DNA of 64,000 nt, from NCBI GenBank assembly GCA_016180645.1, contig JACPAV010000006.1, positions 62,001 to 126,000 of the forward strand, given 5' to 3'. Below are positions 38,794 to 56,001 of this stretch, in pieces. Origin of the DNA: Nitrospirota bacterium. Lineage in GTDB: Bacteria > JACPQY01. The first letter of the stretch is position 1, and each line of letters starts with the position of its first letter. Under the pieces are notes generated by a model. The model had not been told where the DNA came from. It worked only from the letters and a program-made list of their open reading frames with translations, and searched no databases. Position numbers and translations under genes: made by a program.

Positions 38794-38938
38794 GTGCTTG
38801 AGCCAAGATGGCGATGGCACCGGCTTCCTTGATTGCGGGCAGGATTGCCCGCATGACGAAACCCAGTGCCTGAGCCAGGAAGGCGATGGTATTCGCTTCC
38901 TCTGACGTCGGCAGGATTGCCGACATCAGGAAGCGAAT
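38794..38938. repeat. Two ~72-bp tandem units with GGCAGGATTGCC hairpins downstream of the tRNA
   Basis: Units start 38794 and 38866; hairpins at 38834-38853 and 38891-38938. Confidence 0.7.
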
Positions 38939-39009
38939 GCCGGCGGGCCGGATTGAACGGCCAACCTAGGGCTTATGAGACCCTCGCTCTGCCATTGAGC
39001 TACACCGGC
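38938..39009 (-). tRNA. tRNA with CAT anticodon (elongator Met, or Ile2)
   Basis: GCCGGTG acceptor/CGCCGGC-A, D arm GCTC AATGGCA GAGC, anticodon arm AGGGT CTCATAA GCCCT, T arm GGCCG TTCAATC CGGCC; CCA not encoded. Confidence 0.93.
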
Positions 39010-39039
39010 GACTTAGTTGTTTCGCAAGGTTAGCCGACC

Positions 39040-40206
39040 TCACCGCCTTTTGCCATCCCCCTCGGTGGCTGTCTTGATGGCTGTTGGGTCCCCTACCTTC
39101 ACGTCCGAAAGCTTCTCAACAGCCGACTTCATGTGGTCGGGTGAAAAATGTGCATAACGAAGGACCAAACTGAGCGACTTGGGGGAATGACCCAGGAGCT
39201 TCCCGATTTCAGCAAGTGGCACGCCAGCCATGGCCAGGCGACTCGCGAAATCGTGGCGCAGATCGTGAAAATGTACGTCGTCTACTCCCGCCCGCTTCGC
39301 AAGACGTCTGAAAAAATTCGACAAGTAGTGGACGGCCCTGCCGAACCACGCGGGGAAAATGGGGAGCTCCTTGATTTGCCCCGATGGGAGCGTAGTCACA
39401 TTGCCCGCATCCCTTACCTGGACTCTCCGGATCACTCGGAGCCGAAGCCCCCATAGAATTTCGTACACTTCGCTGTTCATCGGTACCTCGTACGTCTTAC
39501 CGCCCTTATTCTCCCGGACCGTGATAGTGCGCTTGTGAAAATCAGCATCGCCCCACCGGAGCGATGTGAGTCCCGTCAGGCGAATCCCCGTGTTCCACGC
39601 GATCCTGATCAGCGGGATGTTCTCCGTGTCACATGCCGATAGCAACTTCGCGCGCTCATCTTCGCTCAGATACCTGACCCGGTCATTGTCCTCCGTGAGG
39701 AAAAGCCCCCGCTTCTTGGGGAATGCGGCGGGGTTCGTCTTGACCCTCGTCTTAGGGTCGATCATCGAACGATAGTAGATAGCCCGGAGAGTCCCGATGT
39801 ATCGATTCACAGTTCCCGGTTCATGTCCCTCTATGAGACGTTGTTTCACGCTCTCAATGTCGTCGGGCGTAATCGTATCGGCGGGCCGATCCCCAAGAAC
39901 CTTCGTCCAAAACTTTACGTGACGTTCAATCGACGGCATGTACTTCCCATTTTTCACCGCGTACTCAACATAAGCCGACGCAATTTTTCGGAATTGAATT
40001 GTTCCTGCTCGCCCGACCGACTCCGGGAAGAATTTTGCTTCCCGCACTTCCGTTTTGCGCTTCCGATAGACCTCAACGGCCAGCCCCCTCGGGCCAACTT
40101 TTTCTCGGTGACGTTTCCCGATCTGGTCATAGAACACTACCCACCACACTCCCGATGCCTTGGGGTACTCGTACACACCCCGCTGTTTCTTCGCCTGCCT
40201 TCCCAT
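39040..40206 (-). CDS. Tyrosine recombinase/integrase
   Basis: TGIR, HFHDLRHDFASRL, LLGH, RYAH; GGAGG before ATG 40206. Confidence 0.95.
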   Translation of the reverse strand: MGRQAKKQRGVYEYPKASGVWWVVFYDQIGKRHREKVGPRGLAVEVYRKRKTEVREAKFFPESVGRAGTIQFRKIASAYVEYAVKNGKYMPSIERHVKFWTKVLGDRPADTITPDDIESVKQRLIEGHEPGTVNRYIGTLRAIYYRSMIDPKTRVKTNPAAFPKKRGLFLTEDNDRVRYLSEDERAKLLSACDTENIPLIRIAWNTGIRLTGLTSLRWGDADFHKRTITVRENKGGKTYEVPMNSEVYEILWGLRLRVIRRVQVRDAGNVTTLPSGQIKELPIFPAWFGRAVHYLSNFFRRLAKRAGVDDVHFHDLRHDFASRLAMAGVPLAEIGKLLGHSPKSLSLVLRYAHFSPDHMKSAVEKLSDVKVGDPTAIKTATEGDGKRR

Positions 40207-40220
40207 CTTCAAACCTCCAA

Positions 40221-40412
40221 TTATTCCTTTCCGCCGATCCGCAAGGCTCCGTCCATGATCTTTTGAATCACCTCCTCCCTGAAGCGAAGAGCACGCCCTA
40301 ATTTCACCACCGCTCCCACCGGGAACTTTTTCAGATAGACCCATTTGTAGACCGTACTAACCTTCAGCCCGAGCTTTTCAGCCAGGTCAGGGGGTCTGAT
40401 GAGTTTCTGCAT
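40221..40412 (-). CDS. Excisionase-like HTH protein
   Basis: 63 aa, DLAEKLGLKVSTVYKWV..KLGRALRF; directly upstream of int. Confidence 0.85.
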   Translation of the reverse strand: MQKLIRPPDLAEKLGLKVSTVYKWVYLKKFPVGAVVKLGRALRFREEVIQKIMDGALRIGGKE

Positions 40413-40417
40413 CGCGC

Positions 40418-40744
40418 CTACCTCCTCCCCTTGTCCTGGGGTGAAACAATCGTGCCATAGAGTCGTGCCGCCAAAACGCCCGCCGCGAGGATCAATCCTC
40501 CGACGGCCGCAGCTTTGGCGATCTCCTTCCCGAAATGCCGCTGGTCCGCCGCCCTTCGGAGCTTGAGGCACTCGCTCTGAAGAATTCCCAGGACCTGCCT
40601 CGCCAGCGGGTCTAGCCGAACTTCCTTGCCTCCCGCAGCTTCCCACCTGAAAATGCTACTCGGGTGAACACCAGCAGCCTTCGCCAGCTGTATCGGCGAC
40701 AGCCCGAGACACTCTCGAAGGTCTTCGATCTCCTGTCCGGTCAT
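40418..40744 (-). CDS. XRE-family HTH regulator with hydrophobic C-terminus
   Basis: LRECLGLSPIQLAKAAGVHPSSIFRWE. Confidence 0.8.
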   Translation of the reverse strand: MTGQEIEDLRECLGLSPIQLAKAAGVHPSSIFRWEAAGGKEVRLDPLARQVLGILQSECLKLRRAADQRHFGKEIAKAAAVGGLILAAGVLAARLYGTIVSPQDKGRR

Positions 40745-40873
40745 ATTTATATAGAGTCTTATATACAATCCTATACAAGTCAAGCGATTTTTCTCCCTCA
40801 GGAGGTGTGCCAATGAGGGTGCTCCGAGAGGTGGACTGCTCAACAGCGGAGTCGTACAATTACCGGAATTGAC

Positions 40874-43567
40874 ATGGTGCAGGGGCTGGGCGACGAACTA
40901 GAGTGGAAGACCCGGAAAAAGCGAATCGATCCGAGGCTGGATGCCTGCGACTGGAGATTACCCACGAAAGGGCAAGTGCCCCTTCGGACGCCGTACCGGA
41001 CCGAGGAATACCCTACAGATAACGGGCCGGCAGATTACGCCCTGCATCTTGACGGGAAAGTTCTTGGGATCGTCGAGGCGAAGAAGGTAACACTCGGTCC
41101 GCAGAACGTTCTGACTCAAGCAGAGCGGTATGCACGCGGGGCCACCAATAACGGGTTCGATTTCAATGGACTGCGTGTACCGTTCCTCTATTCGACCAAC
41201 GGTGAAGTGATCTGGTTCCATGATATCCGACATCCCCTAAACCGGTCCCGTCGCATCGCCGGATTCCACACGCCCGAAGCCCTAAAAGAGCAACTTGGCC
41301 GCGATTTCGACGCCTCCTGCCGATGGTTTACGGAGAATGCGAATGCCCACCCAAGATTGCGCCCCTACCAAGTAGAGGCAAACACCGCCACGGAGCAGGC
41401 CATCGCGAACCGGAAACGCGAAATGCTCGTGGCGATGGCCACGGGCTCCGGCAAGACGTTCACCATGGCGAATCAGATGTATCGATTCATGAAGTCCGGT
41501 GTATCCAAGCGCATTCTTTTCCTGGTGGATCGGCGGGCGCTCGCCGCCCAAGCCGTTCGCACGCTCGCCTCATTCGAACCGGAACCCGGACAGAAGTTCG
41601 ACAAGCTCTACGAGGTTTACAGCCAACGTTTCCACCGCGACGATCTCGACGAAGAGGAGAAATTCGATCCGGAAGTCCTTCCGTCAGACTACCTGCTGAA
41701 GCCCAGCCCCGATCACTCGTTCGTTTACGTCTGCACCATCCAGCGAATGGCGATAAATCTTTTTGGACGGAACGCGATTTTCGGCTCGGGCGACGAGGAA
41801 ATCGACGAGGATGCCGATCACCTCGATATCCCTATCCACGCCTTCGATGTCGTCATCGCCGACGAGTGCCACCGAGGCTACACATCTCAAGAACTTTCGG
41901 TCTGGCGGAACACGCTCGACCACTTCGATGCGATCAAAATCGGCCTCACCGCCACACCCGCCGCGCACACGACGAGCTATTTCAAGGAAGTCGTCTTCCG
42001 ATATGAGTACGAACGAGCCGTCCGGGAGGGCTATCTCGTGGATTACGATCCCGTTGCCGTTCACTCCGATGTGCGGCTGCGCGGCGTGTTCGTCAAAGAA
42101 GGGGAGAAAGTTGAGAGGGTGGATACGGAGACCGGAAACGAGCAACTCGATCTCATGGAGGACGAGAGGCATTTCGACGTGCCGGAGGTGGAACAGCACG
42201 TCACGTCTCCGGATTCCAATCGCAAGATCATTGAAGAACTCAAGAAACACGCCTTGGAGCATGAACAGAAATACGGGCGCTTTCCCAAGACGTTGATCTT
42301 CGCCGCAAACGACCTGCCGCACACCTCCCATGCCAATCAGCTCGTCGACATCTGCCGCCGGGCATTCGAACGGGGCGATGCCTTCGTTCAAAAGATCACG
42401 GGATCGAAGGACGTCGACCGACCTCTCCAGCGCATCCGGGAATTCCGCAACCGTCCCCTTCCGGGTATCGTCGTCTCGGTCGACATGATGTCCACCGGGG
42501 TCGACATCCCCGATCTGGAATTCATCGTTCTCCTTCGGCCCATCAAGTCCCGCATCCTTTTTGAGCAGATGCTGGGCCGGGGCACCCGGAAGGGCGAAAA
42601 ACATCCGGACAAATCCCATTTCACGGTATTCGACTGCTTCGGCGGTTCTCTTTTGGAATACTTCCGGAAGGCCACGGCAATTTCGGCCATCGCGCCGGAA
42701 CGGGTGGCCCGGACCATCGAAGAGGTCATCAATGATGTCTGGAGCAACCGGGACCGCGAGTACAACATCTGTTGCCTGGTGAAGCGGCTTCAACGTATCA
42801 ACAAGGAGATCGCGCCCGAGGGACGTGACAATCTGAAAGTTTTCTTGCCTGATGGCGATCTGGGCCGATACGCTCAAGGACTCCCCCACGCGCTCAATCA
42901 GGATTTCGTTGCCACGATGAAGCTCTTACGCGATCCCGACTTTCAGAAACTCCTGACCGATTTCCCCCGACCGAAACGCGTCTTTTACGTGGCCATCGAG
43001 AGCCAGGACACCGTCAGCTCGGAAGTCCTCATCCGGGATGCGGTTGGAAACGAATGGACGCCGGGGGACTACATCAAGGCCTTCCACGCTTTTGTTCGGG
43101 AGAATCCGGATCAGATCCAGGCGATTGGAATCCTCCTCAACCGACCCCAGGATTGGGGGATGGAGGCGCTCGTCGATCTTCAGAGCAAGCTGGCGGTCAC
43201 CAAACTGCGGTTCACTGTGAAGAACTTGCAGACGGCCTACGGCGCACGCTACAAGAAAGCCCTGGTGGACATCATCTCGATGATCAAGCATGCGGCACGC
43301 GAGGGGGAACCTCTCCTGACCGCCGAGGAGAGGGTTGAGAAGGTGTTCAACATCATCAGGTCGCGCTACGAATTCAGCTACGAACAACAGAATTGGCTCG
43401 CCAGAATCCGCGAGCATCTCGTGGCCAATTTGTCCATCGACCCGAAGGACTTCGACGAGATTCCTGTTCTCTCGCGCGAGGGAGGATGGCAGAAAGCCAG
43501 AGGTGTTTTCGAGAAGGGCCGGCTTCGCCAAATCCTCCAGGATTTCAACCAATCCATCGCCGCATGA
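40874..43567 (+). CDS. hsdR: Type I restriction enzyme R subunit (EcoEI/EcoAI-like)
   Basis: ADY..IVEAKK nuclease motif, MATGSGKT, DECHRG, QMLGRGTR. Confidence 0.95.
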   Translation: MVQGLGDELEWKTRKKRIDPRLDACDWRLPTKGQVPLRTPYRTEEYPTDNGPADYALHLDGKVLGIVEAKKVTLGPQNVLTQAERYARGATNNGFDFNGLRVPFLYSTNGEVIWFHDIRHPLNRSRRIAGFHTPEALKEQLGRDFDASCRWFTENANAHPRLRPYQVEANTATEQAIANRKREMLVAMATGSGKTFTMANQMYRFMKSGVSKRILFLVDRRALAAQAVRTLASFEPEPGQKFDKLYEVYSQRFHRDDLDEEEKFDPEVLPSDYLLKPSPDHSFVYVCTIQRMAINLFGRNAIFGSGDEEIDEDADHLDIPIHAFDVVIADECHRGYTSQELSVWRNTLDHFDAIKIGLTATPAAHTTSYFKEVVFRYEYERAVREGYLVDYDPVAVHSDVRLRGVFVKEGEKVERVDTETGNEQLDLMEDERHFDVPEVEQHVTSPDSNRKIIEELKKHALEHEQKYGRFPKTLIFAANDLPHTSHANQLVDICRRAFERGDAFVQKITGSKDVDRPLQRIREFRNRPLPGIVVSVDMMSTGVDIPDLEFIVLLRPIKSRILFEQMLGRGTRKGEKHPDKSHFTVFDCFGGSLLEYFRKATAISAIAPERVARTIEEVINDVWSNRDREYNICCLVKRLQRINKEIAPEGRDNLKVFLPDGDLGRYAQGLPHALNQDFVATMKLLRDPDFQKLLTDFPRPKRVFYVAIESQDTVSSEVLIRDAVGNEWTPGDYIKAFHAFVRENPDQIQAIGILLNRPQDWGMEALVDLQSKLAVTKLRFTVKNLQTAYGARYKKALVDIISMIKHAAREGEPLLTAEERVEKVFNIIRSRYEFSYEQQNWLARIREHLVANLSIDPKDFDEIPVLSREGGWQKARGVFEKGRLRQILQDFNQSIAA

Positions 43568-45003
43568 GTGACGTCGTCCAAAAACTTTGGGGCTTTTGCC
43601 ACACCCTCCGTCACGACGGCATCAGCTACGGCGACTACATCGAACAAATCACCTATCTGCTCTTTCTGAAAATGGCCGACGAGAAGGACGTGAGAATTCC
43701 CAAAGCGTGCGCGTGGCCCGAACTTCGTGCCCAATCGGGCAGCGACCTTCTCGACGGCTACGTGGATATTCTCCGAAAGCTTGGGAAGGAGAAAGGCATC
43801 CTCGGTGATATCTACTCCTCCGCGCAGTCGCGGTTCCGGAATCCCGTCAATCTCAAGAAATTGATCAGTTTGATCGATGAGACGGAATGGACGGCGCTCG
43901 GCGTGGACGTGAAGGCCGAAGCCTACGAGGGCCTCCTGGAAAAAGCGGCCAGCGAGGGCAAGAAAGGAGCGGGGCAATACTTCACCCCGCGCATTCTGAT
44001 CCAGTCGATTGTCCGTTGCATGAAACCCGATCCGAGGAAACACGCCGAGTTCACTATTTGCGATCCCGGCTGCGGAACGGGTGGATTTCTCGTGGCGGCG
44101 TATGAATGGCTTGTCGGTCGAACAAAGGGCGGCGCGCTGGATCGCGAGATCGCAAAGCGAATTAGGGCGAAAACCTATTTCGGCCAGGACCTCGATCCCC
44201 AGCCGCGCCGTCTTGCCCTGATGAATCTCTATCTCCACGGTTTGGAGGCGGTCATCGCGCTGGGCGACTCAATCTACGAGCCACCGGGAAGTGAGAAGTT
44301 CGATGTTGTCCTGACGAATCCACCTTTCGGGACGCGAGGCGCGAACCAAGCGCCGGACCGGGAAGATTTCACCGTGGCCACGTCGAATAAACAGCTCAAT
44401 TTCGTCCAGCACGTCCTCACCATTCTGAAGCCCGGCGGTCGGGCGGCGATTGTGTTGCCGGACAATTGCTTGTTCGAGGATCAGGCCGGAGAGGTGATGA
44501 AAATACTCACCGAGGATTGCGATCTCCATACGGTATTACGCTTGCCGCGTGGGACCTTCACCCCCTACAGCCAGGGCGTGAAGGCAAATGTTGTGTTTTT
44601 CACCAAGGGATACGCGACGGAGACGGTATGGATTTACGACGCCCGAACGAACGTGCCGGGGATCACCAAGAAAGATCGCCCGCTCGCGCCGAAGCACTTC
44701 GAGGGATTCGAGAAGTGCTATGGCTCCGATCCGAATGGCCGTGGAAAACGGAATCCGACGGACTCGAAGGAGGATCGTTGGCGGAGCTTCCATATTTCAG
44801 ATGTCAAAACCCACGATTTCAAGCTGGACAGCTTCAAATGGCTCAAGGAAGACTCCCTTGAGGACGCCGATGACCTCCCGGACCCAGAGGAACTCGTAGC
44901 CGACGCCGTTTCCGAACTCAATGCCGCCATGAAGGATTTGAACAAGATCATGGCGTATCTTGAGAATGGAGAAGCGGTACCAAACAAACCGAAGGGGACA
45001 TGA
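43564..45003 (+). CDS. hsdM: Type I DNA methyltransferase M subunit
   Basis: GQYFTPR, DPGCGTGGF, NPPF; ATGA overlap with hsdR. Confidence 0.96.
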   Translation: MSDVVQKLWGFCHTLRHDGISYGDYIEQITYLLFLKMADEKDVRIPKACAWPELRAQSGSDLLDGYVDILRKLGKEKGILGDIYSSAQSRFRNPVNLKKLISLIDETEWTALGVDVKAEAYEGLLEKAASEGKKGAGQYFTPRILIQSIVRCMKPDPRKHAEFTICDPGCGTGGFLVAAYEWLVGRTKGGALDREIAKRIRAKTYFGQDLDPQPRRLALMNLYLHGLEAVIALGDSIYEPPGSEKFDVVLTNPPFGTRGANQAPDREDFTVATSNKQLNFVQHVLTILKPGGRAAIVLPDNCLFEDQAGEVMKILTEDCDLHTVLRLPRGTFTPYSQGVKANVVFFTKGYATETVWIYDARTNVPGITKKDRPLAPKHFEGFEKCYGSDPNGRGKRNPTDSKEDRWRSFHISDVKTHDFKLDSFKWLKEDSLEDADDLPDPEELVADAVSELNAAMKDLNKIMAYLENGEAVPNKPKGT

Positions 45004-46376
45004 TAGTTACAGCACCCAACTCGGCGACCGGCACTCCTTCGGCTCCGAGTCACTCTGAACTCCCCGAACGGTGGACAATTGCCAAGCTTCTGGAGGTTTG
45101 CGAGCTGAATCCGAAGAAGCCGGCGAGGAACGCCCTGCCGAAAACCGCTCCAGTATCATTCGTGCCAATGGCGGCGGTAGACGAGAAGGAGGGCGCGATT
45201 CGTATAGTCCATGAGCGGGCATTCGCAAGCGTAAGGAATGGGTACACTGCCTTTCGTGAAGGCGACGTATTGATGGCAAAAATCACCCCGTGTATGGAGA
45301 ATGGCAAAGCGGCTGTTGCCCGAGGCTTGAAGAATGGGATCGGTTTCGGATCAAGCGAATTCCATGTTCTCCGTCCGTCCCCGCAGGTGTTGCCTGAGTT
45401 CATCTTTCACTTCATTCGGCAAGAATCGTTCAGAAGGCGCGCCGAAAATGAAATGACGGGTTCAGTGGGGCAAGAAAGGGTACCAACGGAATTCTTCGAC
45501 GATGTCGAGATTCCGTTTGCGCGCATATCAGACCAGAAGCGGCTTGTGGCGGTCGTTGAAACCCTGCTCGCCCAAGCCCATTCCGCCCGCGAACGTTTGG
45601 CGCGGGTGCGTGGAATAATGAAGCGCTTCCGTCAGTCCGTCCTCGCCGCCGCCTGCTCCGGCCGCCTCACCGCCGACTGGCGGGAGGAGGAGGCCGTGGC
45701 TTCAGAGATCGCTGACGAGCCTTGGCAATTCGAAAGCATCGCTTCTGTGTGCTCAGAGGTTGTCGACTGCCCACACTCAACTCCAAAGTGGGCCGACAGG
45801 GGCGAGATCTGTCTAAGAACCACAAATTTCACCATTGATGGGTTGGATCTTTCGACCGTACGGTACGTTTCGCGTGAGACCTACAGTCAGCGGGTGATCC
45901 GGCTAGAGCCGAGGCAGGACGACATTGTGTATAGCCGAGAAGGAGGAATCCTCGGAATAGCATGTATCATTCCAGCGGGCCTTCGCGCGTGCCTGGGTCA
46001 GCGGATGATGCTTATGCGTTGCAACCAGAAGACAATTCGGGCCAATTTTCTTTGCCATGTACTGAACTCCCCTCAGATGATGCATCGCGTAGTAGAACTC
46101 ACCGGCGGGAGCGCTTCTCCGCATCTCAATGTAGGGGTCATTAAGAGGTTTCCAGTTCCATCTCCTCGACTAGAAGAGCAGGATGAAATTCTCCGTCGCG
46201 TCGAGTCCCTTTTCAGGCTCGCGGACAAAATCGAGGAGCGCGTTTCCACCGCCGCCGCCCGCGCCGACAAACTCACCCAATCCATCCTCGCCAAAGCCTT
46301 CCGCGGCGAACTTTTCCTCACGCATGCTGATTCAACCCATTGCGAACCGACCTCCGGACATGCAATTAAACGATGA
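45000..46376 (+). CDS. hsdS: Type I specificity subunit
   Basis: ELPERW, KITPCMENGK, two TRDs, QSILAKAFRGEL. Confidence 0.95.
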   Translation: MIVTAPNSATGTPSAPSHSELPERWTIAKLLEVCELNPKKPARNALPKTAPVSFVPMAAVDEKEGAIRIVHERAFASVRNGYTAFREGDVLMAKITPCMENGKAAVARGLKNGIGFGSSEFHVLRPSPQVLPEFIFHFIRQESFRRRAENEMTGSVGQERVPTEFFDDVEIPFARISDQKRLVAVVETLLAQAHSARERLARVRGIMKRFRQSVLAAACSGRLTADWREEEAVASEIADEPWQFESIASVCSEVVDCPHSTPKWADRGEICLRTTNFTIDGLDLSTVRYVSRETYSQRVIRLEPRQDDIVYSREGGILGIACIIPAGLRACLGQRMMLMRCNQKTIRANFLCHVLNSPQMMHRVVELTGGSASPHLNVGVIKRFPVPSPRLEEQDEILRRVESLFRLADKIEERVSTAAARADKLTQSILAKAFRGELFLTHADSTHCEPTSGHAIKR

Positions 46377-46382
46377 GGCAGA

Positions 46383-47504
46383 TCACGCAGCCGAATTGGT
46401 GCTTTGGGAAAGGACCTGGCGACAAAGATCGGAAAATGTCTTATAGATTGTCACTCCGTTCGCGGATCGGCCGCGGAAGAACTTCTTCATCTTTTTCTGG
46501 ACGCAATCGGAAGGATCCACCACCACGATTCTACGGTACTTTGTATTCTTATCATTCATCGCCTTTGAGAGAATTGCCCGAAGATGGAAATCGGTTGAGA
46601 TGAGGGAACATCCGATGATTACAATCTGATCTGCGTCCTTTGCGGCTCCGTATGTAGCTATCCATAGCTTCCGCCAGAATTGGTTCCTAAAGAATTTCGA
46701 ATAGAGCGGCGGAACAAAGAGGCGTACCAATCGTTGCGCCTTCCTTTCATTTACCATTGGGAGTGCAGTCATTCGGATCTCAGAAACAGGGCGACGTTCA
46801 AGCACTTCTTCGAGATTCTTGGAGTTCCCTTTAGCGAACCAGTTAAGTGACCCGTGGGGCTTGAGAAGCCGCACACTTATGAGATGCACTTGCTGGCCAT
46901 ACTGGGGGACTGAGATTTCACTGCTTAGTCTTGCGGAAAAGCCGTACCCTTTTCGAGGATTCCAGCCCGCCGTAAATAACGCGTTGTCTACAAGCGTGTC
47001 ATAGTTGAGGGAGACGATCACATCATGCGGTTGTAGCGAACGTGCGAGAAGATCGTGATGTTGAATGCCATCCCGAGGACGACAAGTCTTTTGAACAAAA
47101 CGGAACAAGTGGATCAACAGATTGAGAAAATCTCTAATTTCGGGCCTGTACCCTACCGATGTTTTTCTGCCTCTCCCCTTATGAAAGATTTCCGGCAGAT
47201 CTTTGGAGATAAAGAGGATGCTAAAGACTTCCTCCATGGTCGGTTGGCGGAAGCCTTTCGGTCCGACCTCGTGGTTCACGAAATCAGCAAGCCGGTCGTA
47301 GGCGGCTCTATGCGTTTGGCCGTCATTCGTCCGAATGTATTTTCTGAGCACTTCAAAGAAATCGCCATTAAGGGGGGCAGTTACCCGAGGGGAATGCGTC
47401 CCTCTAAGTGCACCTTTCGTCGCGCCGGCGCCAAGGACGATCAACGTCTTTGAGTTGCGACCATTGATGATCACTGCAACTCCCTCACCCGTCCGAAACC
47501 ACAA
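46383..47504 (-). CDS. SIR2-like (SIR2_2) domain protein, putative NADase defence effector
   Basis: VLGAGAT, SLNYDTLVD, KPHGSLNW, VPP, IIGCSL..D; start uncertain. Confidence 0.85.
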   Translation of the reverse strand: MWFRTGEGVAVIINGRNSKTLIVLGAGATKGALRGTHSPRVTAPLNGDFFEVLRKYIRTNDGQTHRAAYDRLADFVNHEVGPKGFRQPTMEEVFSILFISKDLPEIFHKGRGRKTSVGYRPEIRDFLNLLIHLFRFVQKTCRPRDGIQHHDLLARSLQPHDVIVSLNYDTLVDNALFTAGWNPRKGYGFSARLSSEISVPQYGQQVHLISVRLLKPHGSLNWFAKGNSKNLEEVLERRPVSEIRMTALPMVNERKAQRLVRLFVPPLYSKFFRNQFWRKLWIATYGAAKDADQIVIIGCSLISTDFHLRAILSKAMNDKNTKYRRIVVVDPSDCVQKKMKKFFRGRSANGVTIYKTFSDLCRQVLSQSTNSAA

Positions 47505-47543
47505 GACGGCGTAAGCGCAACCGCATCATGAACAGCCAGCGGC

Positions 47544-47741
47544 TTACCTTCTGCGCCCAACCTTAGTGCGCCGCCCAGCGTATTTCCTAGGATTGAGAAT
47601 CTGCGAGAGACGTCCTTGCGAAATCCCCATAGCGCTGGAAATCTCCGGATTGGGAATCTCGGCCTTCCTCAGAAGTAAGACCAGAAGCCGGGACATCGTC
47701 CGAAGTTCCTTCAGGATGAGTTGAGCTATTTCGTCATTCAT
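47544..47741 (-). CDS. Small HTH protein (3 of 3)
   Basis: 65 aa; EISSAMGISQGRLSQIL; basic tail. Confidence 0.7.
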   Translation of the reverse strand: MNDEIAQLILKELRTMSRLLVLLLRKAEIPNPEISSAMGISQGRLSQILNPRKYAGRRTKVGRRR

Positions 47742-47755
47742 TCTTCCCCCCGTTG

Positions 47756-47992
47756 TTAGGAATTCCTTCGGGGAAGCTTGGCGATCCCCCTCTTGCGTAG
47801 ATTCGCCAAGGCCACATTGACGGTATTAGAAGTCGTGTTGAGGGCTTTGGCGATCTCTGTGGGCCGCATGCCAGCAAGGCTTAGAAGCCGGATTTGTTCA
47901 GACTGAGTTTTCCCCTCCGTCATCCGTAGAACCATCAACGTAAGAATCCCATTCAGCTTTGATACGATCGATTGGGCTAATTGCTGTTCCAT
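47756..47992 (-). CDS. Small HTH protein (2 of 3)
   Basis: 78 aa; GMRPTEIAKALNTTSNTVNVALANLRK. Confidence 0.75.
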   Translation of the reverse strand: MEQQLAQSIVSKLNGILTLMVLRMTEGKTQSEQIRLLSLAGMRPTEIAKALNTTSNTVNVALANLRKRGIAKLPRRNS

Positions 47993-47995
47993 TAG

Positions 47996-48223
47996 CTAGA
48001 TCCTCCTCTTCGATTTCGCTTGTGCTATGGTTGCCGTAACGAAGTTAATTGGCTTCCCTACAATTCGAGCAATCTCTGAAGGGCTTGCTCCCATTGCAAG
48101 CAGTCTTCGGATCTTCTGCGCTGCGCTGGCGATTTCATCAAAATCGACCTGGTCAAGCAGAAGAGCCGTGATGAGGTCGAGCCGTCTTGCAATTCCCTCA
48201 AGAATGTCATCTTTTCGTTTCAT
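47996..48223 (-). CDS. Small HTH protein (1 of 3)
   Basis: 75 aa; GASPSEIARIVGKPINFV; AAGGAGG RBS. Confidence 0.75.
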   Translation of the reverse strand: MKRKDDILEGIARRLDLITALLLDQVDFDEIASAAQKIRRLLAMGASPSEIARIVGKPINFVTATIAQAKSKRRI

Positions 48224-48244
48224 AGCTACCTCCTTGTGTTACTA

Positions 48245-48273
48245 AGCATAATATCTAGCTAAGAGGCTGTCAA
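48245..48273 (-). promoter_or_regulatory. Sigma70 promoter of the HTH-trio/SIR2 unit
   Basis: TTGACA(48273-48268)-17 bp-TATGCT(48250-48245). Confidence 0.75.
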
Positions 48274-48889: not shown

Positions 48890-49213
48890 CTACCCACGGC
48901 GGGTGAGCACCTCGAAATCATGCGCGGTGATCCGGTGCGTCGGCTGGACGAACCAGGCCCATGGACGCTCCGGATCGTGGTCGCGGAAAACATCGAGCCT
49001 CGCGCGGAGGCGCACATCGAGGGCGACCGGACTGTCGATGTAAAGGGCGACGTCCGCGAGCCTGACGAGCCAGGGGTACTTCTCAGGCACCTCCACGGGA
49101 GCCTTGAGTCCTTTTTCCACCGCCGACGCAAGCCGCGCATGGCCGACAGTGCCCTTGGAGGCGGCGTAGAAGCAGATAGAGTCCCCAGCCTTGGCCGACT
49201 TCCGGGCCGCACT
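48890..49213 (-). pseudogene. Orphan copy of the C-terminal (EVE-like) domain of 50486-51628
   Basis: GDSICFYAASKGTVGHARLAS..PEKYPW..WAWF..ITAHDFEVLTRRG* versus NDQICFYACGVGAVAHARIAS..PEKYPW..WGWF..ISPKDFEILTSRG*; TAG at 49216-49214 upstream. Confidence 0.8.
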
Positions 49214-49228
49214 CTAGTCCCACGAACC

Positions 49229-49504
49229 TCAAAGAGTTGTACCCACCGCCCAATACGTGACCGTGAGGCCGCACTTGAAGAAAGTCGCCTTCATCTCCGC
49301 CGCTGCGTCGCTCGGCCAGTAGCCGCCGACTTCTACCGTGAACTCGGCTTCAGCGCCACCTACCCCGTCCTTTGCCTCCGAGACGGCGAGAGGACCTTGG
49401 AACGCGTACCGCAATGTTGTGTGGGAGGATTCCGCCAGGCGGCGCTGAATGTCCGCAACTTTCTCCGGCGTTGGATACGGTTTGAACTGGACGAGGAGTT
49501 TCAT
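49229..49504 (-). CDS. Small hypothetical protein
   Basis: ATGA overlap with the metallophosphoesterase stop. Confidence 0.55.
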   Translation of the reverse strand: MKLLVQFKPYPTPEKVADIQRRLAESSHTTLRYAFQGPLAVSEAKDGVGGAEAEFTVEVGGYWPSDAAAEMKATFFKCGLTVTYWAVGTTL

Positions 49505-50223
49505 CGGCTTGGTATCGATAGCTCGATCACCATCCCGTCCGGCCCCGGATTCACGATCCGGGTGGAGCCGATGGAATCCTCCCGCCCGAAACACTCATGG
49601 AAGTGACCGCAGATGACGATGCGGGGCTTCAAGGATTCGACGATCCTACGCACCGCCTTGCTGCCGATGCGCTTGCCGTCTTTGGGCACCGTCCAAAGCG
49701 AGCCGGTCCAGATCGGCTCCAGACCACAACAGGCCGTGTCGGACGGCGGGAAGTGCGTGAGAAAAATCACCGGAAGGGCCGGGTCGACCTGCGCTTTCAG
49801 GGTGGGCAGGTAGCTCCCGTAGCACTCCTGGTCTTCTCCGAAGAGCGGGGATAGGTCGGTCGTGCCGTCTAGACCGGCAATCAGGACTCTCGTGCCCTCC
49901 GCCGCGCCGAACACGTCAACCTTGAGATCGACATACCGCAGGACCGGGAACGCCTTGGAGACCGCAGAGCAAATGGTTCCGTACTCGTGGTTCCCGGCGA
50001 TGAAGTAGATCGGGATTCCAGCCTCGCTGAGCATCTTGAAGGATGGATGGAGACCTTCCGATTCGATGGTGAAGTCCCCCGCGCACACGATGAACGACGC
50101 CCGGCTCTCTCGTGTGAGGCGGAGGACCTTCTGGATCGACTCGACTGAGGCGTGGTGGTCCGTGAACGCTACGAAGCGAACCGGCGGGGAGGACGTCCGC
50201 TCCTGTTGTTCCTTCACGGGCAT
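49501..50223 (-). CDS. Calcineurin-like metallophosphoesterase
   Basis: TDHH, AGDF, GNHE, THFPP, GHFHE, NPG. Confidence 0.9.
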   Translation of the reverse strand: MPVKEQQERTSSPPVRFVAFTDHHASVESIQKVLRLTRESRASFIVCAGDFTIESEGLHPSFKMLSEAGIPIYFIAGNHEYGTICSAVSKAFPVLRYVDLKVDVFGAAEGTRVLIAGLDGTTDLSPLFGEDQECYGSYLPTLKAQVDPALPVIFLTHFPPSDTACCGLEPIWTGSLWTVPKDGKRIGSKAVRRIVESLKPRIVICGHFHECFGREDSIGSTRIVNPGPDGMVIELSIPSR

Positions 50224-50247
50224 GACCTACCCGCAGCTTCCCGCAAC

Positions 50248-50493
50248 TCAATGCTTGGAGGAACCCGCATCGACCCGACGCTGGAGGGACATCGCCATCT
50301 CCAGCGCGTACTGGACACGATCCCGGAGTTGGACCCACTGGCGATGCACTCTCTCCATCCCGTTCACTCGGTCGCGAACAATGGTCAAGATCTGGATCAG
50401 ATCCTCCGCGTCGAACTCCTCATCCAAGGGAGGAGGGGCCGACCGTTTCGGCCGCCTCCCACTACCCCGCCCTTGGTTCGTTCTCTTACCCAC
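50248..50493 (-). CDS. Small helical/coiled-coil protein
   Basis: Overlaps the end of the nuclease gene; amphipathic helices. Confidence 0.5.
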   Translation of the reverse strand: MGKRTNQGRGSGRRPKRSAPPPLDEEFDAEDLIQILTIVRDRVNGMERVHRQWVQLRDRVQYALEMAMSLQRRVDAGSSKH

Positions 50494-51628
50494 GGCTGGT
50501 GAGGATCTCGAAGTCCTTGGGGGAGATCCGCCGTGTCATCTTGAGGAACCACCCCCAGGACCCTTCCGGGTTCCGACCCTCGAACGCATCGAGCTCGGCA
50601 CGCACCTTCGCGTTGAGCACCTTGGGTTGCTCGACGTACAGGTGGACATCACCCAGCCGGATGCCCCAAGGATACTTCTCCGGGATAGGCACCTCGGCGT
50701 GGAGCCCCTTTTCCGGCCTGGAGGCGATTCGGGCATGGGCAACCGCCCCCACGCCGCAGGCGTAGAAACAGATCTGATCGTTCTCCTTCATCTGCCTCCG
50801 GGCGGGGGACCGGTCCCCAAGGGCGAACACGCGCCCGACACCCACGAGGGAGCGGATGATCTCGGTGGCCTTCGATCCATTCGATCCGACCGGGGCCAGC
50901 CAGCAGGTAGGCTCATCGGCGGTGACCACCTTTTCAGTGGAGGGAGCCAATGCCGGCTTGGGGAGGGTGTCCGGCTCCCGGCGGGCCATCAGGCGGGCGA
51001 GGAGGTCCACCACGGGGTCGACGTCCGGCGTGGAAGGCCGGAGGATGGCCAGTACATCCTCATGGGTGGCCTCCTGCTCGTCCACCATCTCCGCGAGGGA
51101 GAGGAGGGATTCGACGGAGGCCACTCGGAGTTGATGGGTCCTCTTTTCTGCGATGATGGCGTTCTCAAGCTGTCGCACCTGGGGATCGGGCCGTCCGACG
51201 ACATACAGCCCCAGGGCGTGGTCCCAGCCGGGTATGACCCCTTGGGAGATGAGTTCATCCACGTACCCCACCAAGGCGGAGGTCTTGATGGCATAGGTTT
51301 CGGAGGTCTTCACCTCGATGACGAGGGAGAACCCTCCGGGAGATTTCCAGAGGCCGTCGAAGCCGACCTCTCCCCGGCCCCCGTTGTACCGGCCATAGGC
51401 GACATCGAACCCGAGGAGTTCCCCCAAACGGACCACCATATCCTGGAGCGCCCGGCTGGGCTGTTCGCCGGTCTCGCCGAGGCATTCCTCGATGTAGTCC
51501 CGGAGCTGGCCTACCTCCATGACGTTGCTCCGCAGATAGGACCGGAACCGCTCGCGCGGGGTGTTTTCGCCGGGGCTGTCGTCCAGCCTCCCGGCGAGGT
51601 CGAGTATCCGTTTCAAGCTGATCATCAT
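50486..51628 (-). CDS. PD-(D/E)XK restriction-endonuclease-like protein with C-terminal EVE/PUA-like domain
   Basis: FDGLW..IEVKTS; C-terminal MKENDQICFY..VAHARI..YPW; GGAGG RBS. Confidence 0.7.
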   Translation of the reverse strand: MMISLKRILDLAGRLDDSPGENTPRERFRSYLRSNVMEVGQLRDYIEECLGETGEQPSRALQDMVVRLGELLGFDVAYGRYNGGRGEVGFDGLWKSPGGFSLVIEVKTSETYAIKTSALVGYVDELISQGVIPGWDHALGLYVVGRPDPQVRQLENAIIAEKRTHQLRVASVESLLSLAEMVDEQEATHEDVLAILRPSTPDVDPVVDLLARLMARREPDTLPKPALAPSTEKVVTADEPTCWLAPVGSNGSKATEIIRSLVGVGRVFALGDRSPARRQMKENDQICFYACGVGAVAHARIASRPEKGLHAEVPIPEKYPWGIRLGDVHLYVEQPKVLNAKVRAELDAFEGRNPEGSWGWFLKMTRRISPKDFEILTSRG

Positions 51629-51730
51629 TTTCTACCTCCTTTACGTCTCTTTCCGTTCTCTCGGCCTCACTCAGCCAAGATGACTATTTGTCAACACCAA
51701 CGCTCTTGGGCCGCGACAAGTCAAGTACTT

Positions 51731-52207
51731 TCAAACAGATCGGGGCTTCATGGCCTGCTCGATTTCGGCCTTCCGAAGATGGGCAATGTAGGCAGGATTT
51801 GAGACGAGGTTGAAGGCGTAGGCGAGGGCCGGATTCAATTCGGAAGGGATCGGCGTGCCTGCTGGACCCAGGTGCCACAAGCGATCCGCGAAATCGTGAT
51901 CGCAGGAAACGACGCCGATGGGGTCAGGGAGGTCCGCGGTGACCTTGTCCAGTGTCCTTCCCGATAGGAAATGGGCGTAGAGGCCGTAAGCGGGGGGATC
52001 AGTGGAGCAACGGTGGATGACAACGCCCCGGTCGGAAGCCGTGTGCGATTTGAAGACGACGAGCCAATCGGGGGCGGGGAAAGAGTGTTGGCCCACCGCT
52101 GTCCGGGCCGTCGGCTGGATCGCCGCGCCGGCCGCCATATCGGCGGCCATCCGGAGGAACTCCCGCCGTTCGAGGTGTTTTGCACTGCTCGGTCTCTTGG
52201 CGTCCAT
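51731..52207 (-). CDS. Hypothetical protein with possible Tat motif
   Basis: ERREFLRMAA. Confidence 0.45.
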   Translation of the reverse strand: MDAKRPSSAKHLERREFLRMAADMAAGAAIQPTARTAVGQHSFPAPDWLVVFKSHTASDRGVVIHRCSTDPPAYGLYAHFLSGRTLDKVTADLPDPIGVVSCDHDFADRLWHLGPAGTPIPSELNPALAYAFNLVSNPAYIAHLRKAEIEQAMKPRSV

Positions 52208-52334
52208 TGGTCGCCATGGACGCTTCGTTCCCGCGAACAGTCAAGTCGATTCGGACGATTTCAGACTATGGGTTGCTATTCAGAACTCTTGGCCGAAGTT
52301 CGGGGAAGAGCAGCGAAGTAAGGGGATGGGGGGA

Positions 52335-52772
52335 TTACAGACAGCCGGTGGTGGTCTTGGAGCAGGTGCAGTCGCAGGAGTTCGCGCCAAGCGTACAAGG
52401 GTCCTTGGTGCCCATGCAGGTGGACTCGGCGGTGAATGCGACGGAACTCGATGAGGCCGATGAACTTTCGCATGAGGTGACGTTCACGCTGGCGTTCGCG
52501 GTCGTACAAACCGCCGTACAGCGGCAGTTCCAGTTGACCTTGGTCGTGGTGACGGTGGTTGTCGTCGCTGTGTCCGTTTGGCCGGTCTTGGAATCCTTCG
52601 TGGTGGTCGTTGTGCTTTTCGTAGAGCCTGAGCTGCTCGTGGTAGTGGCGGTCTCCTCGTCATCCCCGTCCAGGAGATCTTCCAACTCACCGCAGGCGAC
52701 GAGCGGTGCCATTAGGCAGAGGAGAATTGCAAATGTCTTCAACCCTGAAGAACGAACTTTTGCTTGCATCAT
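52335..52772 (-). CDS. Cys-rich lipoprotein with Thr/Ser linker
   Basis: LVAC lipobox, Thr-rich tract, WNCRCTAVC. Confidence 0.7.
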   Translation of the reverse strand: MMQAKVRSSGLKTFAILLCLMAPLVACGELEDLLDGDDEETATTTSSSGSTKSTTTTTKDSKTGQTDTATTTTVTTTKVNWNCRCTAVCTTANASVNVTSCESSSASSSSVAFTAESTCMGTKDPCTLGANSCDCTCSKTTTGCL

Positions 52773-53626
52773 TTACAAAGATTTCGGGCGCAGGTCTTGG
52801 CAGTCGCAGAACACCCACAAGTCCCGCACGAGAGTTTTGCCGTCCCGGTTGGACATTGGTAGGAAACGACATCTTGGGAGCAATTTCCTGCGGCCGTTGT
52901 CGCGACCGTGGCCTTATCAGTATTGTCCAAGGCGCATTCGACGCCTGATGCATTGCCTATGATGATGGCCCCGCCTCTTGGTATTGTAATCGTCCTACTC
53001 GGAATCTGATTGGTACCCTGGCAAGTTACGTCGCAATTGCAGCTCCATTCTGCGCATGCGACAGGCTTCGTGTCGTCGTTGTCTGTTCCTCCGGAGACCT
53101 TGTCAACGTAGGAATCACAGTCCACATCGGGGCCACAAACATGATTCTTGGGATCGATGACTTTGGGAGAGTACTGGAAATTGATAGGGGCGGGTGGGGA
53201 GGGAGGGTCGATCACAATGACTGAACCAACTTGCGCTGCCTTCTGTTCGGGCTTTTCAAAACAATCCACGGTGAACAACTTGTAAGACCCAGCTGAAACT
53301 TGGGAAAAAGTGAATGTGCCATCCGAGTCCGTTAAGGTAGCTGCATTGGACGCTGATTTTTCAGTGGCGGAATCGACCAGAGCCAGTGGGAACTTCGAAA
53401 TCGGAGAACCATCGCAAGTTCGTTTGACCGTACCAGAGATCGACACGGTAGGAGGTGGAGGCGCCGCCGCCGTGGTCAGATCTGTGTCTCCTTGCTCCGG
53501 GTCGCCGCTACACGACATAGCGAGGGCGAGGAAAGTAGCAAGAAAATATGTGCGTGCGCCAGCCCGGCCTCTCTGGACATTGCCTCGCATCTTGGCTTGG
53601 CATCGATAAGACCCCCAGTATTCCAT
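52769..53626 (-). CDS. Cys-rich lipoprotein with carboxypeptidase-regulatory-like beta-sandwich
   Basis: AMSC lipobox, ISGTV..TDSDGTFTF..GSYKL, WSCNCDVTC; start may be 53590. Confidence 0.7.
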   Translation of the reverse strand: MEYWGSYRCQAKMRGNVQRGRAGARTYFLATFLALAMSCSGDPEQGDTDLTTAAAPPPPTVSISGTVKRTCDGSPISKFPLALVDSATEKSASNAATLTDSDGTFTFSQVSAGSYKLFTVDCFEKPEQKAAQVGSVIVIDPPSPPAPINFQYSPKVIDPKNHVCGPDVDCDSYVDKVSGGTDNDDTKPVACAEWSCNCDVTCQGTNQIPSRTITIPRGGAIIIGNASGVECALDNTDKATVATTAAGNCSQDVVSYQCPTGTAKLSCGTCGCSATAKTCARNLCK

Positions 53627-53727
53627 GTGTAGGGCGGAGAATACGTCCTATGGATAGAATAAGTCAAGTCCTCTCTGTGTATTGGGATGTTCCGGGCCGG
53701 AGTCTGGCGGCCAATAATCGGGCCACG

Positions 53728-54066
53728 GTGGACCAGAAGGACAAGATCAAGGCCCTCGTGGGTGACCGGATGCAATCGCTTCGAAAGGCGAAGGGTCTGA
53801 CTCAGGGAGAGTTGTCCGAGAGGGTGGGCATCTCCGACAAGTACCTCTCGAACGTCGAGTGCGGACGGGAAAACCCGACGCTGGACACTCTCCTCGGCGT
53901 AGCCGCGGCCCTAGGCGTTCCGATCTGGGAATTCTTTGCAATCCAGGAAGCAAGCCTTTCTGACGTGGACAAGGTGAAGACGGCCCAATCGCTCTTGAAG
54001 AAGGCTGCCCCGAAAGACGTCGATATCGTTCTCCGCCTCCTCCGCGAGATCGGAATCAAGCCTTAG
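53728..54066 (+). CDS. XRE-family HTH regulator
   Basis: LRKAKGLTQGELSERVGISDKYLSNVECGRENPTL. Confidence 0.9.
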   Translation: MDQKDKIKALVGDRMQSLRKAKGLTQGELSERVGISDKYLSNVECGRENPTLDTLLGVAAALGVPIWEFFAIQEASLSDVDKVKTAQSLLKKAAPKDVDIVLRLLREIGIKP

Positions 54067-54331
54067 CTGGGGGACGCCGGGGTGAGATCCGGCGGCCACG
54101 TTATCGCCGCGAGCGTCGCAGCCCAAGGACGAGTTCGTAGGCGTCTTGCGCGTGGTCGCGGAGGTCGGCGCATTCCCGCTTCGTTCCAAGGGCAAGTCAA
54201 ATCGTTTCGGATTCGACATAGGTCTGGACAAGCGTGGTTCGCGGGTGGCGAATGGGCGGTCGATTCACCTTCGATTCCCGCGCGGTGTACACGACCTCTC
54301 AAATTAGCGAAAATCAGGGTATAGTTGGGTC

Positions 54332-54565
54332 ATGAGTTTGCCAGGCCGAATTGCCGTTGATCCCAATTACTGTGGCGGGCGGCCCCATTTCCGGGGCACG
54401 CGAGTACCGGTCTATGTGGTGTTGGAGATGCTCGCGAATCGCGAGGACACGAATGAAATTCTATCCGAATATCCCAATCTTACCGCCGAGGATCTCCGGG
54501 ACGCGCTTGTGTACGCCAAGCAACTGGCTGAGATTCCGGGAGCGCCGTTAGCCGTCGGCTCCTGA
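54332..54565 (+). CDS. DUF433 antitoxin
   Basis: DPNYCGGRPHFRGTRVPV..EYPNLT.ED. Confidence 0.92.
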   Translation: MSLPGRIAVDPNYCGGRPHFRGTRVPVYVVLEMLANREDTNEILSEYPNLTAEDLRDALVYAKQLAEIPGAPLAVGS

Positions 54566-54599
54566 TCGCCGATCTCTGCATACGGCCCGAGCGGTCGCC

Positions 54600-54944
54600 G
54601 TGAAGATCATCGTCGACAACAACCTGCCAGCCAGTCTCGCTCACCTAATCCGTTCGGCCGGCTTCGACGCATCGCATGTTGTTGAGATCGGAATGGGATC
54701 TGCGAGTGACGCCGAGATACGCCGGAAATACGATCAGGAGAATATCATCTTCGTTTCTCGCGATTCCGATTTCTGGTTTCAGCGGCCGAAAGGTTGGTCA
54801 GTAGCTTGGATATCCGTTCACAACCCCACGCTTGCCCAATTGCGGGGACCCATCGCCCAGCGACTGAAGGAAGCATTGCCGAGAATGACGCCGGGGTCGA
54901 GGATGATGGTGACGGAGCAGGCGGTGGTCTTCTACAGCGGCTAG
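54600..54944 (+). CDS. DUF5615 PIN-like toxin
   Basis: IIVDNNLP, SDAEI, SRDSDF; follows DUF433. Confidence 0.88.
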   Translation: MKIIVDNNLPASLAHLIRSAGFDASHVVEIGMGSASDAEIRRKYDQENIIFVSRDSDFWFQRPKGWSVAWISVHNPTLAQLRGPIAQRLKEALPRMTPGSRMMVTEQAVVFYSG

Positions 54945-55024
54945 GGAGTAGATTCCTCCGCGGCACCTAGATTCATTGGCGATGCGTTGGGTTTGGCCTT
55001 CACGTGCCGGCGGCGAGAGGCTGG

Positions 55025-55600
55025 CTATAACCCTATTCCCTTGAGCGCCTTGTTGACCACGCGGTCCGACAGTTTGCCGACAACTTTCCGACCAATTCCG
55101 TCGATCACGCGCCCGGCCTCATCGGTCGCTTGCTCTTTGCCTACCACACTCGCCCGACCGGCCACGTAGCCGCCCAAGGCGGCTAAGCAAATACCACCAC
55201 CTATAACCCAAGGACTGGCCCACCAAGGCCGGGAGACCGAAGCCGGCACCTGTCGGCTTCGATCGTCTCGTTGAAACCGCAAGCCCGTGATCATTCTCGT
55301 CACCCCGTCCATCTTGGCGTTGAGAGAGGCGATTTGGTCGGCGGAGTAATCATGGGAAACAGCCGAGGGCTCAGGGGTGGGTGGGTTCAAGATTTCCGGC
55401 ATGGGTGCCTCCCATTGAGGGTTACCCCCAGGGGTAGGGGTAGGGCTCCCGAACCGTTGCATCGGCGCCGCCGGCGGCCTCGGCCGGAATTCGCACCGGC
55501 CCATGTGCCCGTTCGCCTGGTCGGATTCGTCATACGCCCTATCGCAGTACGGGCACGGGAACTTTCCTTCGGTGTTCCTCACGGGTTTCAATCTGCTCAT
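55025..55600 (-). CDS. Zinc-finger (C2HC) protein with Pro-rich linker and TM helix
   Basis: FPCPYCDRAY..GHMGRC; WVIGGGICLAALGGYVAG; AGGAGG RBS. Confidence 0.65.
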   Translation of the reverse strand: MSRLKPVRNTEGKFPCPYCDRAYDESDQANGHMGRCEFRPRPPAAPMQRFGSPTPTPGGNPQWEAPMPEILNPPTPEPSAVSHDYSADQIASLNAKMDGVTRMITGLRFQRDDRSRQVPASVSRPWWASPWVIGGGICLAALGGYVAGRASVVGKEQATDEAGRVIDGIGRKVVGKLSDRVVNKALKGIGL

Positions 55601-55798
55601 TGCGTGTCCTCCTTTCGCAGAGGTTGGTGGCTGTGGTGGTGGCTGTCGGCTCGTAAGGCCGGGCCATGGTGGTCCGACGCCGTCAATGACGGCGGTGGCG
55701 CGACATGGGTGAATAACTTCGAACTTTCGCAGACAAATCCGATTCCGTCGGGGATCGTCAAACAGTAGGAAAGACGTGAGGATCGAGGGCTGGAAGTG

Positions 55799-55837
55799 TT
55801 ATGAGACCCTCGCTCTGCCATTGAGCTACGCCGGCGA
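55799..55837 (-). repeat. att site: displaced 5' half of tRNA(CAT)
   Basis: ttatgagaccctcgctctgccattgagctacgccggcga versus 38973-39011. Confidence 0.92.
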
Positions 55838-55943
55838 GCATTCGTAAAATGGACTCGGCACGTCCCCCTGTCAATGAGCGAAACGCGTGATCCACGTTCA
55901 CCGCTCAATGGCGACGAACTGAACGCCATGAAAACCTATCGCG

Positions 55944-56001
55944 GCCATTGAGCTACGCCAACAATCGCTCGTAAGATGCACTCGGCGCGCGCGACTGTCA
56001 A
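55944..56001 (-). repeat. Second, decayed tRNA 5' fragment with its promoter
   Basis: 58-nt colinear match to 55817-55874 including TTGACA and GGCGTAGCTCAATGGC. Confidence 0.8.

What the first reader, a model, noticed from the sequence alone, without database searches (positions are those of the whole stretch)
38938..55874. Island integrates by replacing the 5' half of a tRNA and separates it from its promoter
Seen: the duplicated att core runs from the anticodon loop to the tRNA 5' end. The intact tRNA lies 30 nt downstream of the integrase stop on the same strand, while the displaced 5' half with a TTGACA-17-CATTTT promoter sits 16.8 kb away. Known: most tRNA-targeting elements restore the 3' part so the host promoter is kept. 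Inference: this tRNA(CAT) now depends on island-derived transcription (a TAACCT hexamer lies just upstream), which could couple int expression to tRNA supply or stabilise the island.
Basis: partly seen in the sequence, partly recalled or inferred. Interest (0 to 1): 0.75.

Follow-up and report, generated by a model that had tools for sequence, protein, structure and literature searches.

The report
Island supplies tRNA front and promoter
A 16.8-kb defence island sits in the gene for what is likely the cell's main methionine tRNA, replaces the gene's front half with its own copy and likely supplies a promoter from the tail of its integrase gene, an uncommon but published arrangement that is frequent among this integrase's relatives.

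Summary
Observation confirmed. A tyrosine-integrase island (type I restriction-modification, SIR2-like and toxin-antitoxin cargo) lies upstream of tRNA(CAT). The 5' half (38/39 nt, ending at the anticodon loop) is duplicated 16,826 nt away behind TTGACA-17-CATTTT; no 3' copy exists in the genome. The arrangement is known: 159 of 3,919 Islander islands, pelagiphages, archaeal pTN3. This scan also noted it on other DNA. It is not rare here: 8 5'-type versus 2 3'-type fragments in this genome, and 38 versus 44 among related integrases elsewhere. The tRNA is likely the elongator Met (no TilS, tRNA-Ile(UAU) present). A -10 box lies 12-20 nt before the tRNA in 22 of 41 5'-type versus 1 of 44 3'-type loci, but the phylogenetically independent test is not significant. 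The one relative in this family has lost the integrase and shows no displaced half, yet keeps the 108-nt integrase tip before its tRNA-Met. This favours a promoter in the tip over coupling to integrase expression. No RNA data; the local promoter is weak (7 of 12).

The parts
38938..39009 (-). Intact tRNA(CAT), likely elongator tRNA-Met; island-supplied 5' half (U6-G67) joined to the host 3' half
38973..39011 (-). Integrase-side copy of the att identity block (tRNA positions 1-37)
39027..39056 (-). Candidate replacement promoter ATGGCA-18-TAACCT (7 of 12), 17 nt before the tRNA, spanning the integrase stop; overlaps an IHF-like motif; 26 of 30 nt kept in G001
   Evidence: function inferred
39064..39085 (-). 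Two direct ACAGCCA arm-type repeats (12-nt period) inside the last integrase codons
   Evidence: (D14); arm-site role inferred
39040..40206 (-). Tyrosine integrase, 388 aa, open frame
   Evidence: PF00589 E 2.6e-25
40221..40412 (-). Small HTH_17/AlpA protein, likely excisionase
40418..40747 (-). XRE-type HTH regulator, first gene of the HTH-xis-int run
40874..46376 (+). Type I restriction-modification hsdR, hsdM, hsdS
46383..47504 (-). SIR2-like protein
   Evidence: weak matches
49501..50223 (-). Metallophosphoesterase
54332..54944 (+). DUF433 plus DUF5615/PIN pair, toxin-antitoxin-like
   Evidence: pair role recalled
55628..55647 (-). Second pair of ACAGCCA arm-type repeats, 150 nt inside the far end
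55799..55837 (-). Displaced 5' half of the tRNA (C6, which would pair with G67)
55846..55874 (-). Host-type promoter TTGACA-17-CATTTT, now pointing into the island
   Evidence: same type as the host tRNA-Gly(GCC) promoter TTGACA-18-CATCTT
55926..56001 (-). Decayed second copy of promoter plus tRNA 5' piece, 127 nt upstream
   Evidence: (D1, D2)

Best explanation
This is a 16.8-kb tyrosine-integrase island that carries a copy of the tRNA's 5' half next to its integrase stop, likely crossed over in the anticodon loop of what is likely the elongator tRNA-Met gene, and likely transcribes the rebuilt tRNA from a promoter in its own integrase tail. Shown: the duplicated 5' half, no 3' duplicate, arm-like repeats at both ends, integrase and excisionase-like genes, a host-type promoter stranded at the far end. 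Inferred: the order of events; that ATGGCA-18-TAACCT is the working promoter; that the tRNA is essential. Mechanistically the att core is simply inverted relative to the integrase compared with 3'-type relatives, a switch seen at least 8-12 times on the tree. Precise excision would restore the host promoter, so only the roughly 110-nt tip is expected to be protected from loss.
For: Geometry; the single mismatch gives C6-G67 in the displaced half and U6-G67 in the present gene. Four ACAGCCA hits lie in two pairs at the two ends, against about 5 hits expected per 64 kb anywhere. tRNA identity: no TilS over cut-off in G000 or G001, the one weak hit being a different PP-loop protein; tRNA-Ile(UAU) and an initiator tRNA are present in both; this is the only other CAT tRNA outside two tRNA arrays in G000 and the only other one among 42 tRNAs in G001. 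Family: 42 of 196 integrase loci have a co-directional tRNA just after the stop, 45 a convergent one, 109 none; displaced 5' halves were found for 6 loci outside G000. -10 box 12-20 nt before the tRNA: 22 of 41 versus 1 of 44; shuffle mean 11.8 for the 41; present in 7 of 16 lineage groups. Better promoters sit at the same place in G000's Gly(CCC) (10 of 12) and Gln(CTG) (8 of 12) islands. G001 keeps the tip with a divergent hsdR right behind it, so read-through from an integrase operon is not available there.
Against: No transcription data. The local site scores 7 of 12, below the scan's threshold, and 4.5% of shuffles reach it. The 12-20 nt window was chosen after viewing the sequences. 16 of the 23 -10-positive rows (before removing one duplicate) are one clade, and the independent-pairs test is not significant (8 pairs, median p 0.625). 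G000's Arg(TCG), Leu(TAA) and Leu(CAA) 5'-type junctions show no good promoter. In G001 the -35 to -10 stretch (26 of 30) is hardly better kept than the integrase tail (26 of 32) or the downstream flank (48 of 60). Two co-directional loci with 20 kb upstream showed no fragment and L126 has a 3' fragment downstream. No empty site was found.
Confidence: 0.62

Rival explanations
1. Same integration geometry, but the tRNA is transcribed by read-through from the HTH-xis-int promoter near 40750-40800, as described for archaeal pTN3-like elements; TAACCT is only part of an IHF-like att motif.
For: HTH, xis, int and tRNA are co-oriented and close-packed; an AT-rich stretch with TTGACT precedes the HTH gene; the IHF-like motif scores 7 of 9 or more in 23 of 41 5'-type and 27 of 44 3'-type arms; about half of 5'-type loci lack a -10 box; precedent in PMC8371274.
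Against: G001 has no integrase operon there. Two terminator-like hairpins lie in int on that strand, though at chance level. Integrase operons are usually repressed (recalled), a poor source for an abundant tRNA.
Confidence: 0.2
2. The rebuilt tRNA gene is weakly expressed or silent and another gene, such as the CAT tRNA in the C29 tRNA array, supplies elongator Met.
For: G000 has two tRNA arrays with three more CAT tRNAs, one not initiator-like; the local promoter is weak.
Against: G001 has no second candidate among 42 tRNAs (84% complete) and the gene is 68 of 72 identical between the two genera.
Confidence: 0.08
3. G001 shows the true empty site: the tip is host promoter DNA that the integrase frame runs into, and the TTGACA-preceded half came with the element.
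For: G001 has the tip, no integrase and no displaced half.
Against: The tip holds the arm repeats that recur at the far island end; 38 loci outside G000 put a tRNA right after the integrase stop; in G001 the tip abuts a restriction-modification cassette whose upstream promoter-like stretch resembles that of G000's C40 cassette; the stranded promoter is of the host type.
Confidence: 0.07
4. Assembly artefact: the island is a circle and the chromosome is intact.
For: Logan contigs break at the shared 31-mer and cannot tell integrated from excised.
Against: Island and flanks have the same depth in X1-X3; G001 independently has tip, tRNA and 3' flank in one piece.
Confidence: 0.03

Closest known systems
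Islander islands with a 5' tDNA fragment, anticodon-loop (A) site (Hudson, Lau and Williams, PMC4383910)
   Same: Integrase-bearing island between a tRNA and its co-oriented, upstream 5' fragment that ends at the anticodon loop.
   Different: 4% of Islander islands, but the majority in this genome and about half of tRNA-adjacent cases in this family; the parts of the paper read do not discuss promoters.
pTN3-like integrases of Thermococcales (PMC8371274, PMC5495485)
   Same: attB is the tRNA 5' half; the rebuilt tRNA is separated from its own promoter and expressed from element DNA.
   Different: pTN3 att lies inside the integrase gene and splits it, and the tRNA uses the integrase promoter; here the integrase stays whole and a separate promoter in its tail is inferred.
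HTVC019P-type pelagiphages (bioRxiv 10.1101/410191)
   Same: Phage attP downstream of the integrase supplies the tRNA 5' end, sometimes with a base change.
   Different: T7-like phages, not a defence island; the word promoter does not occur in that paper's main text.
dusA-associated integrase islands (PMC4482086)
   Same: Island replaces the 5' end of a host gene and brings putative -10/-35 boxes.
   Different: Target is a protein gene; a different integrase family (not compared here).
tRNA-dependent lysogeny (PMC10865867)
   Same: Element takes over supply of an essential host tRNA, with its own promoter.
   Different: There the core is about 10 bp, the host tRNA is not rebuilt and the phage carries a whole tRNA; here the gene is rebuilt at the junction.

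Membership tests
Islander 5'-fragment tRNA island | tRNA plus end fragment on the same replicon, same orientation, 5' fragment upstream | tested here: met
   criteria read
Islander 5'-fragment tRNA island | Tyrosine integrase (PF00589) inside the interval | tested here: met
Islander 5'-fragment tRNA island | Length 2-200 kb | tested here: met
   16,826 nt
Islander 5'-fragment tRNA island | Empty site or excised circle observed | tested here: inconclusive
   contigs break at the core; only relative is not empty
Anticodon-loop (A) site class | Identity block ends at the anticodon loop | tested here: met
   ends with CTCATAA
pTN3/SSV-type split integrases | att inside the integrase gene, gene split on integration | tested here: not met
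   whole 388-aa frame ends 30 nt before the core
tRNA-dependent lysogeny | Short core, host tRNA not rebuilt, whole tRNA carried by element | tested here: not met
   39-nt block, tRNA rebuilt, no other tRNA in the window
Element-supplied tRNA promoter | Transcription starts in element DNA | not testable with these tools
   no RNA holder listed; motif statistics only
Elongator tRNA-Met rather than tRNA-Ile2 | No TilS; AUA read by tRNA-Ile(UAU); separate initiator tRNA | tested here: met
   genomes 97% and 84% complete; decoding logic recalled

The most novel reading that the evidence does not exclude
A broad family of bacterial integrases repeatedly flips its att core to take over tRNA 5' halves and carries a dedicated tRNA promoter in the integrase tail; in this bacterial family that tail has been domesticated as the permanent promoter of the sole elongator tRNA-Met gene after the integrase and the original promoter were lost (G001).
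Probability: 0.4. Interest if true: 0.62.

Novelty: new member of a known kind. Interest (0 to 1): 0.4.

Why it matters
Reviews treat tRNA expression from element DNA as seldom met in bacteria (PMC8371274, passage). Here it looks common in one integrase family, with a matched 3'-type control group, so the question of how such elements keep an essential tRNA expressed becomes testable with a 110-nt reporter. If G001 is read correctly, it shows a route by which a mobile element's tail permanently replaces a core gene's promoter. The single locus in the window is otherwise an ordinary defence island.

Tried and rejected
Promoter scan at 9 of 12 with both hexamers at 4 or more found neither the stranded promoter nor the tip site. 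Search for a 3'-half duplicate: none. Search for an empty site: 61 genomes gave one family member, which is not empty; Logan contigs of 4 runs from 1 study, 3 possibly the source of this DNA, break at the core and cannot decide; the one joint near the cores has 15 foreign letters and a 24-nt side, so it was read as another organism's tRNA. No RNA holder listed. Genome-contig scan with the single protein gave 1 weak locus, which failed the integrase profile and was dropped. Cultured phages and plasmids hold only 29% identical relatives, one record each. The careful tree did not finish; the quick tree was used. Independent-pairs test not significant. Selection on the promoter in G001 could not be shown by segment identity. 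Not available: Williams 2002, the TIGER paper, Mantri and Williams 2004, Williams 2003; they may already discuss element-borne tRNA promoters. Searches for such promoters listed no paper devoted to them; this is a limited library. No supplements were read; Fig. S2 of the pelagiphage preprint and Fig. S4C of the dusA paper may bear on the promoter claim.
Full report
Observation. All stated features are present: tRNA(CAT) at 38938-39009 minus, a 38 of 39 copy of its positions 1-37 at 55799-55837, integrase stop 30 nt before the tRNA, TTGACA-17-CATTTT before the copy and TAACCT at 39027-39032. The genome (97% complete) has no 3' duplicate.

Anatomy. The interval encodes an intact tyrosine integrase, an excisionase-like HTH, an XRE regulator, a type I restriction-modification system, a SIR2-like protein, a metallophosphoesterase and a DUF433/DUF5615 pair. 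G+C is 0.51-0.58 over 39-49 kb against about 0.6 in the flanks. Paired ACAGCCA repeats lie at 39064-39085 and 55628-55647, placed as arm sites would be on a circle (lambda-type layout recalled). The one mismatch gives a G-C pair for the displaced half and a G-U pair for the present gene, in line with the displaced half being the original. The stranded promoter resembles the host tRNA-Gly(GCC) promoter.

Which tRNA. No TilS passes the cut-off in G000 or G001 (the weak hit is another PP-loop protein by my reading). Both have tRNA-Ile(UAU) and an initiator tRNA. This gene is therefore likely the elongator Met. G000 has three further CAT tRNAs in two arrays, two initiator-like; G001 has none besides the initiator among 42 tRNAs.

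How common. In G000, fragments of 26 nt or more next to or matching a specific tRNA are 5'-type in 8 cases (Met, Gly-CCC twice, Arg-TCG, Leu-TAA, Leu-CAA on another contig, Gln-CTG, Ser-TGA) and 3'-type in 2 (Thr-CGT; Pro-GGG, interrupted); array-to-array matches and cross-matches to other isoacceptors were left out. Integrases end 1-30 nt before the Met, Gln and Gly tRNAs, and one reads through Leu-CAA. Of 197 loci gathered with a 60-protein alignment (80 metagenome, 80 viral, 30 genome-search, 7 added), 196 had an integrase; 42 had a co-directional tRNA after the stop, 45 a convergent one, 109 none, many through short contigs. Outside G000 the counts are 38 and 44. Displaced 5' halves were confirmed in L099, L116, L131, L137 and in G098 and G340, 2 of the 7 co-directional genomes for which I fetched more DNA (3 of the 7 had under 6 kb). 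The quick tree of 86 rows needs 12 changes of type, 8 forced by well-supported branches.

Promoter test. After removing duplicates, a -10-like hexamer ending 12-20 nt before the tRNA occurs in 22 of 41 5'-type and 1 of 44 3'-type arms; with an 8-25 window, 30 of 41 and 8 of 44. Shuffles give 11.8 and 8.4, so 5'-type arms are enriched and 3'-type arms depleted. The window was chosen post hoc, one clade supplies most positives, and 8 independent pairs give median p 0.625. An IHF-like motif (consensus recalled) occurs in both types, a median 17 nt from the tRNA in 3'-type and 24 nt in 5'-type arms. In the window the site is ATGGCA-18-TAACCT, reached by 4.5% of shuffles. Three 5'-type junctions in G000 lack a convincing promoter.

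The relative. G001, another genus and the only family member among the genomes searched, has the same tRNA preceded by DNA 81% identical over 38876-39117, that is 108 nt of integrase tail and att arm. Directly beyond lies a divergent hsdR cassette related to one on G000 C40. No integrase lies there and no displaced half was found in the contig stretch or the assembly (84% complete). This upstream region aligns better between the genera (score 72) than that of the eight other tRNA types compared (12-40). Arm repeats are 13 of 22 identical and the -35 to -10 stretch 26 of 30, but the integrase tail is 26 of 32, so selection is not demonstrated. The simplest reading is an island eroded to its tip, which is then the only DNA left to drive the tRNA.

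Mechanism. Shown: geometry, parts, frequency. Inferred: crossover in the anticodon loop; promoter swap, with the tip driving the tRNA and the host promoter now facing island ORFs at 55025-55929; free precise excision but costly loss of the tip. Coupling to integrase expression is the less likely rival.

Literature. PMC4383910: read parts 1-2 of 3 and reference passages (159 of 3,919 with 5' fragment). PMC8371274, PMC5495485, PMC10865867, PMC4482086, PMC12540744 (not relevant) and bioRxiv 10.1101/410191: passages only. Williams 2002 is known to me only through the review's citation. Earlier scan notes describe the same class in Ignavibacteria and at cyanophage sites; I did not test them.

Verdict. 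Real, a new member of a known minority class. The family-wide frequency, the promoter signal and the G001 remnant add moderate interest: 0.4.

Noticed in passing
window 55926-56001; G000 C60:15813-15830, C44:42305-42323, C65:15499-15520, C65:16224-16261: Short copies of a tRNA's 5' start lie 105-150 nt upstream of several host tRNAs (Met remnant, Gly-GCC, Ser-GCT, Lys-TTT, Ser-TGA). Local duplications or scars of collapsed 5'-type islands; unexplained.
   Followed up: partly
window 38789-38932: Two 72-nt tandem copies (72% alike) with hairpin potential right after the tRNA 3' end; G001 has related sequence there.
   Followed up: no
G000 C21 and C29: Two tRNA arrays of 30 and 26 genes, one with a TTA anticodon call.
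   Followed up: no
G000 C11:36309-36381; G001 L275: Stand-alone tRNA-Ile(UAU) with no TilS found in either genome, an uncommon way to read AUA.
   Followed up: partly
G000 C36:5290-6561 (L049): Integrase frame runs through the whole co-directional tRNA-Leu(CAA).
   Followed up: no
G000 C39:7000-7700 (L039): Integrase followed by a co-directional tRNA-Val(CAC)-like sequence cut at the T-arm by a 7-nt tandem array; may be misassembly.
   Followed up: no
G000 C15:2525-46968: Two tandem 5'-type islands at tRNA-Gly(CCC); the outer integrase's last codons hold TTGACT-17-TATCAT, the best test case for an integrase-encoded tRNA promoter.
   Followed up: partly
G000 C23:16014-19121 and C28:82118-83775: Small 5'-type islets (3 kb and 1.6 kb) with att arms but only an integrase remnant or none.
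   Followed up: partly
G000 C13:29135-29208: tRNA-Phe has IHF-like att motifs on both sides but no fragment or integrase nearby.
   Followed up: partly
window 55025-55600 (-): 191-aa ORF with a CxxC..H..C motif, no Pfam match, first gene downstream of the stranded host promoter with a strong ribosome site.
   Followed up: no
window 47544-48223 (-): Three tandem 65-78 aa ORFs with similar helix plus HTH layout.
   Followed up: no
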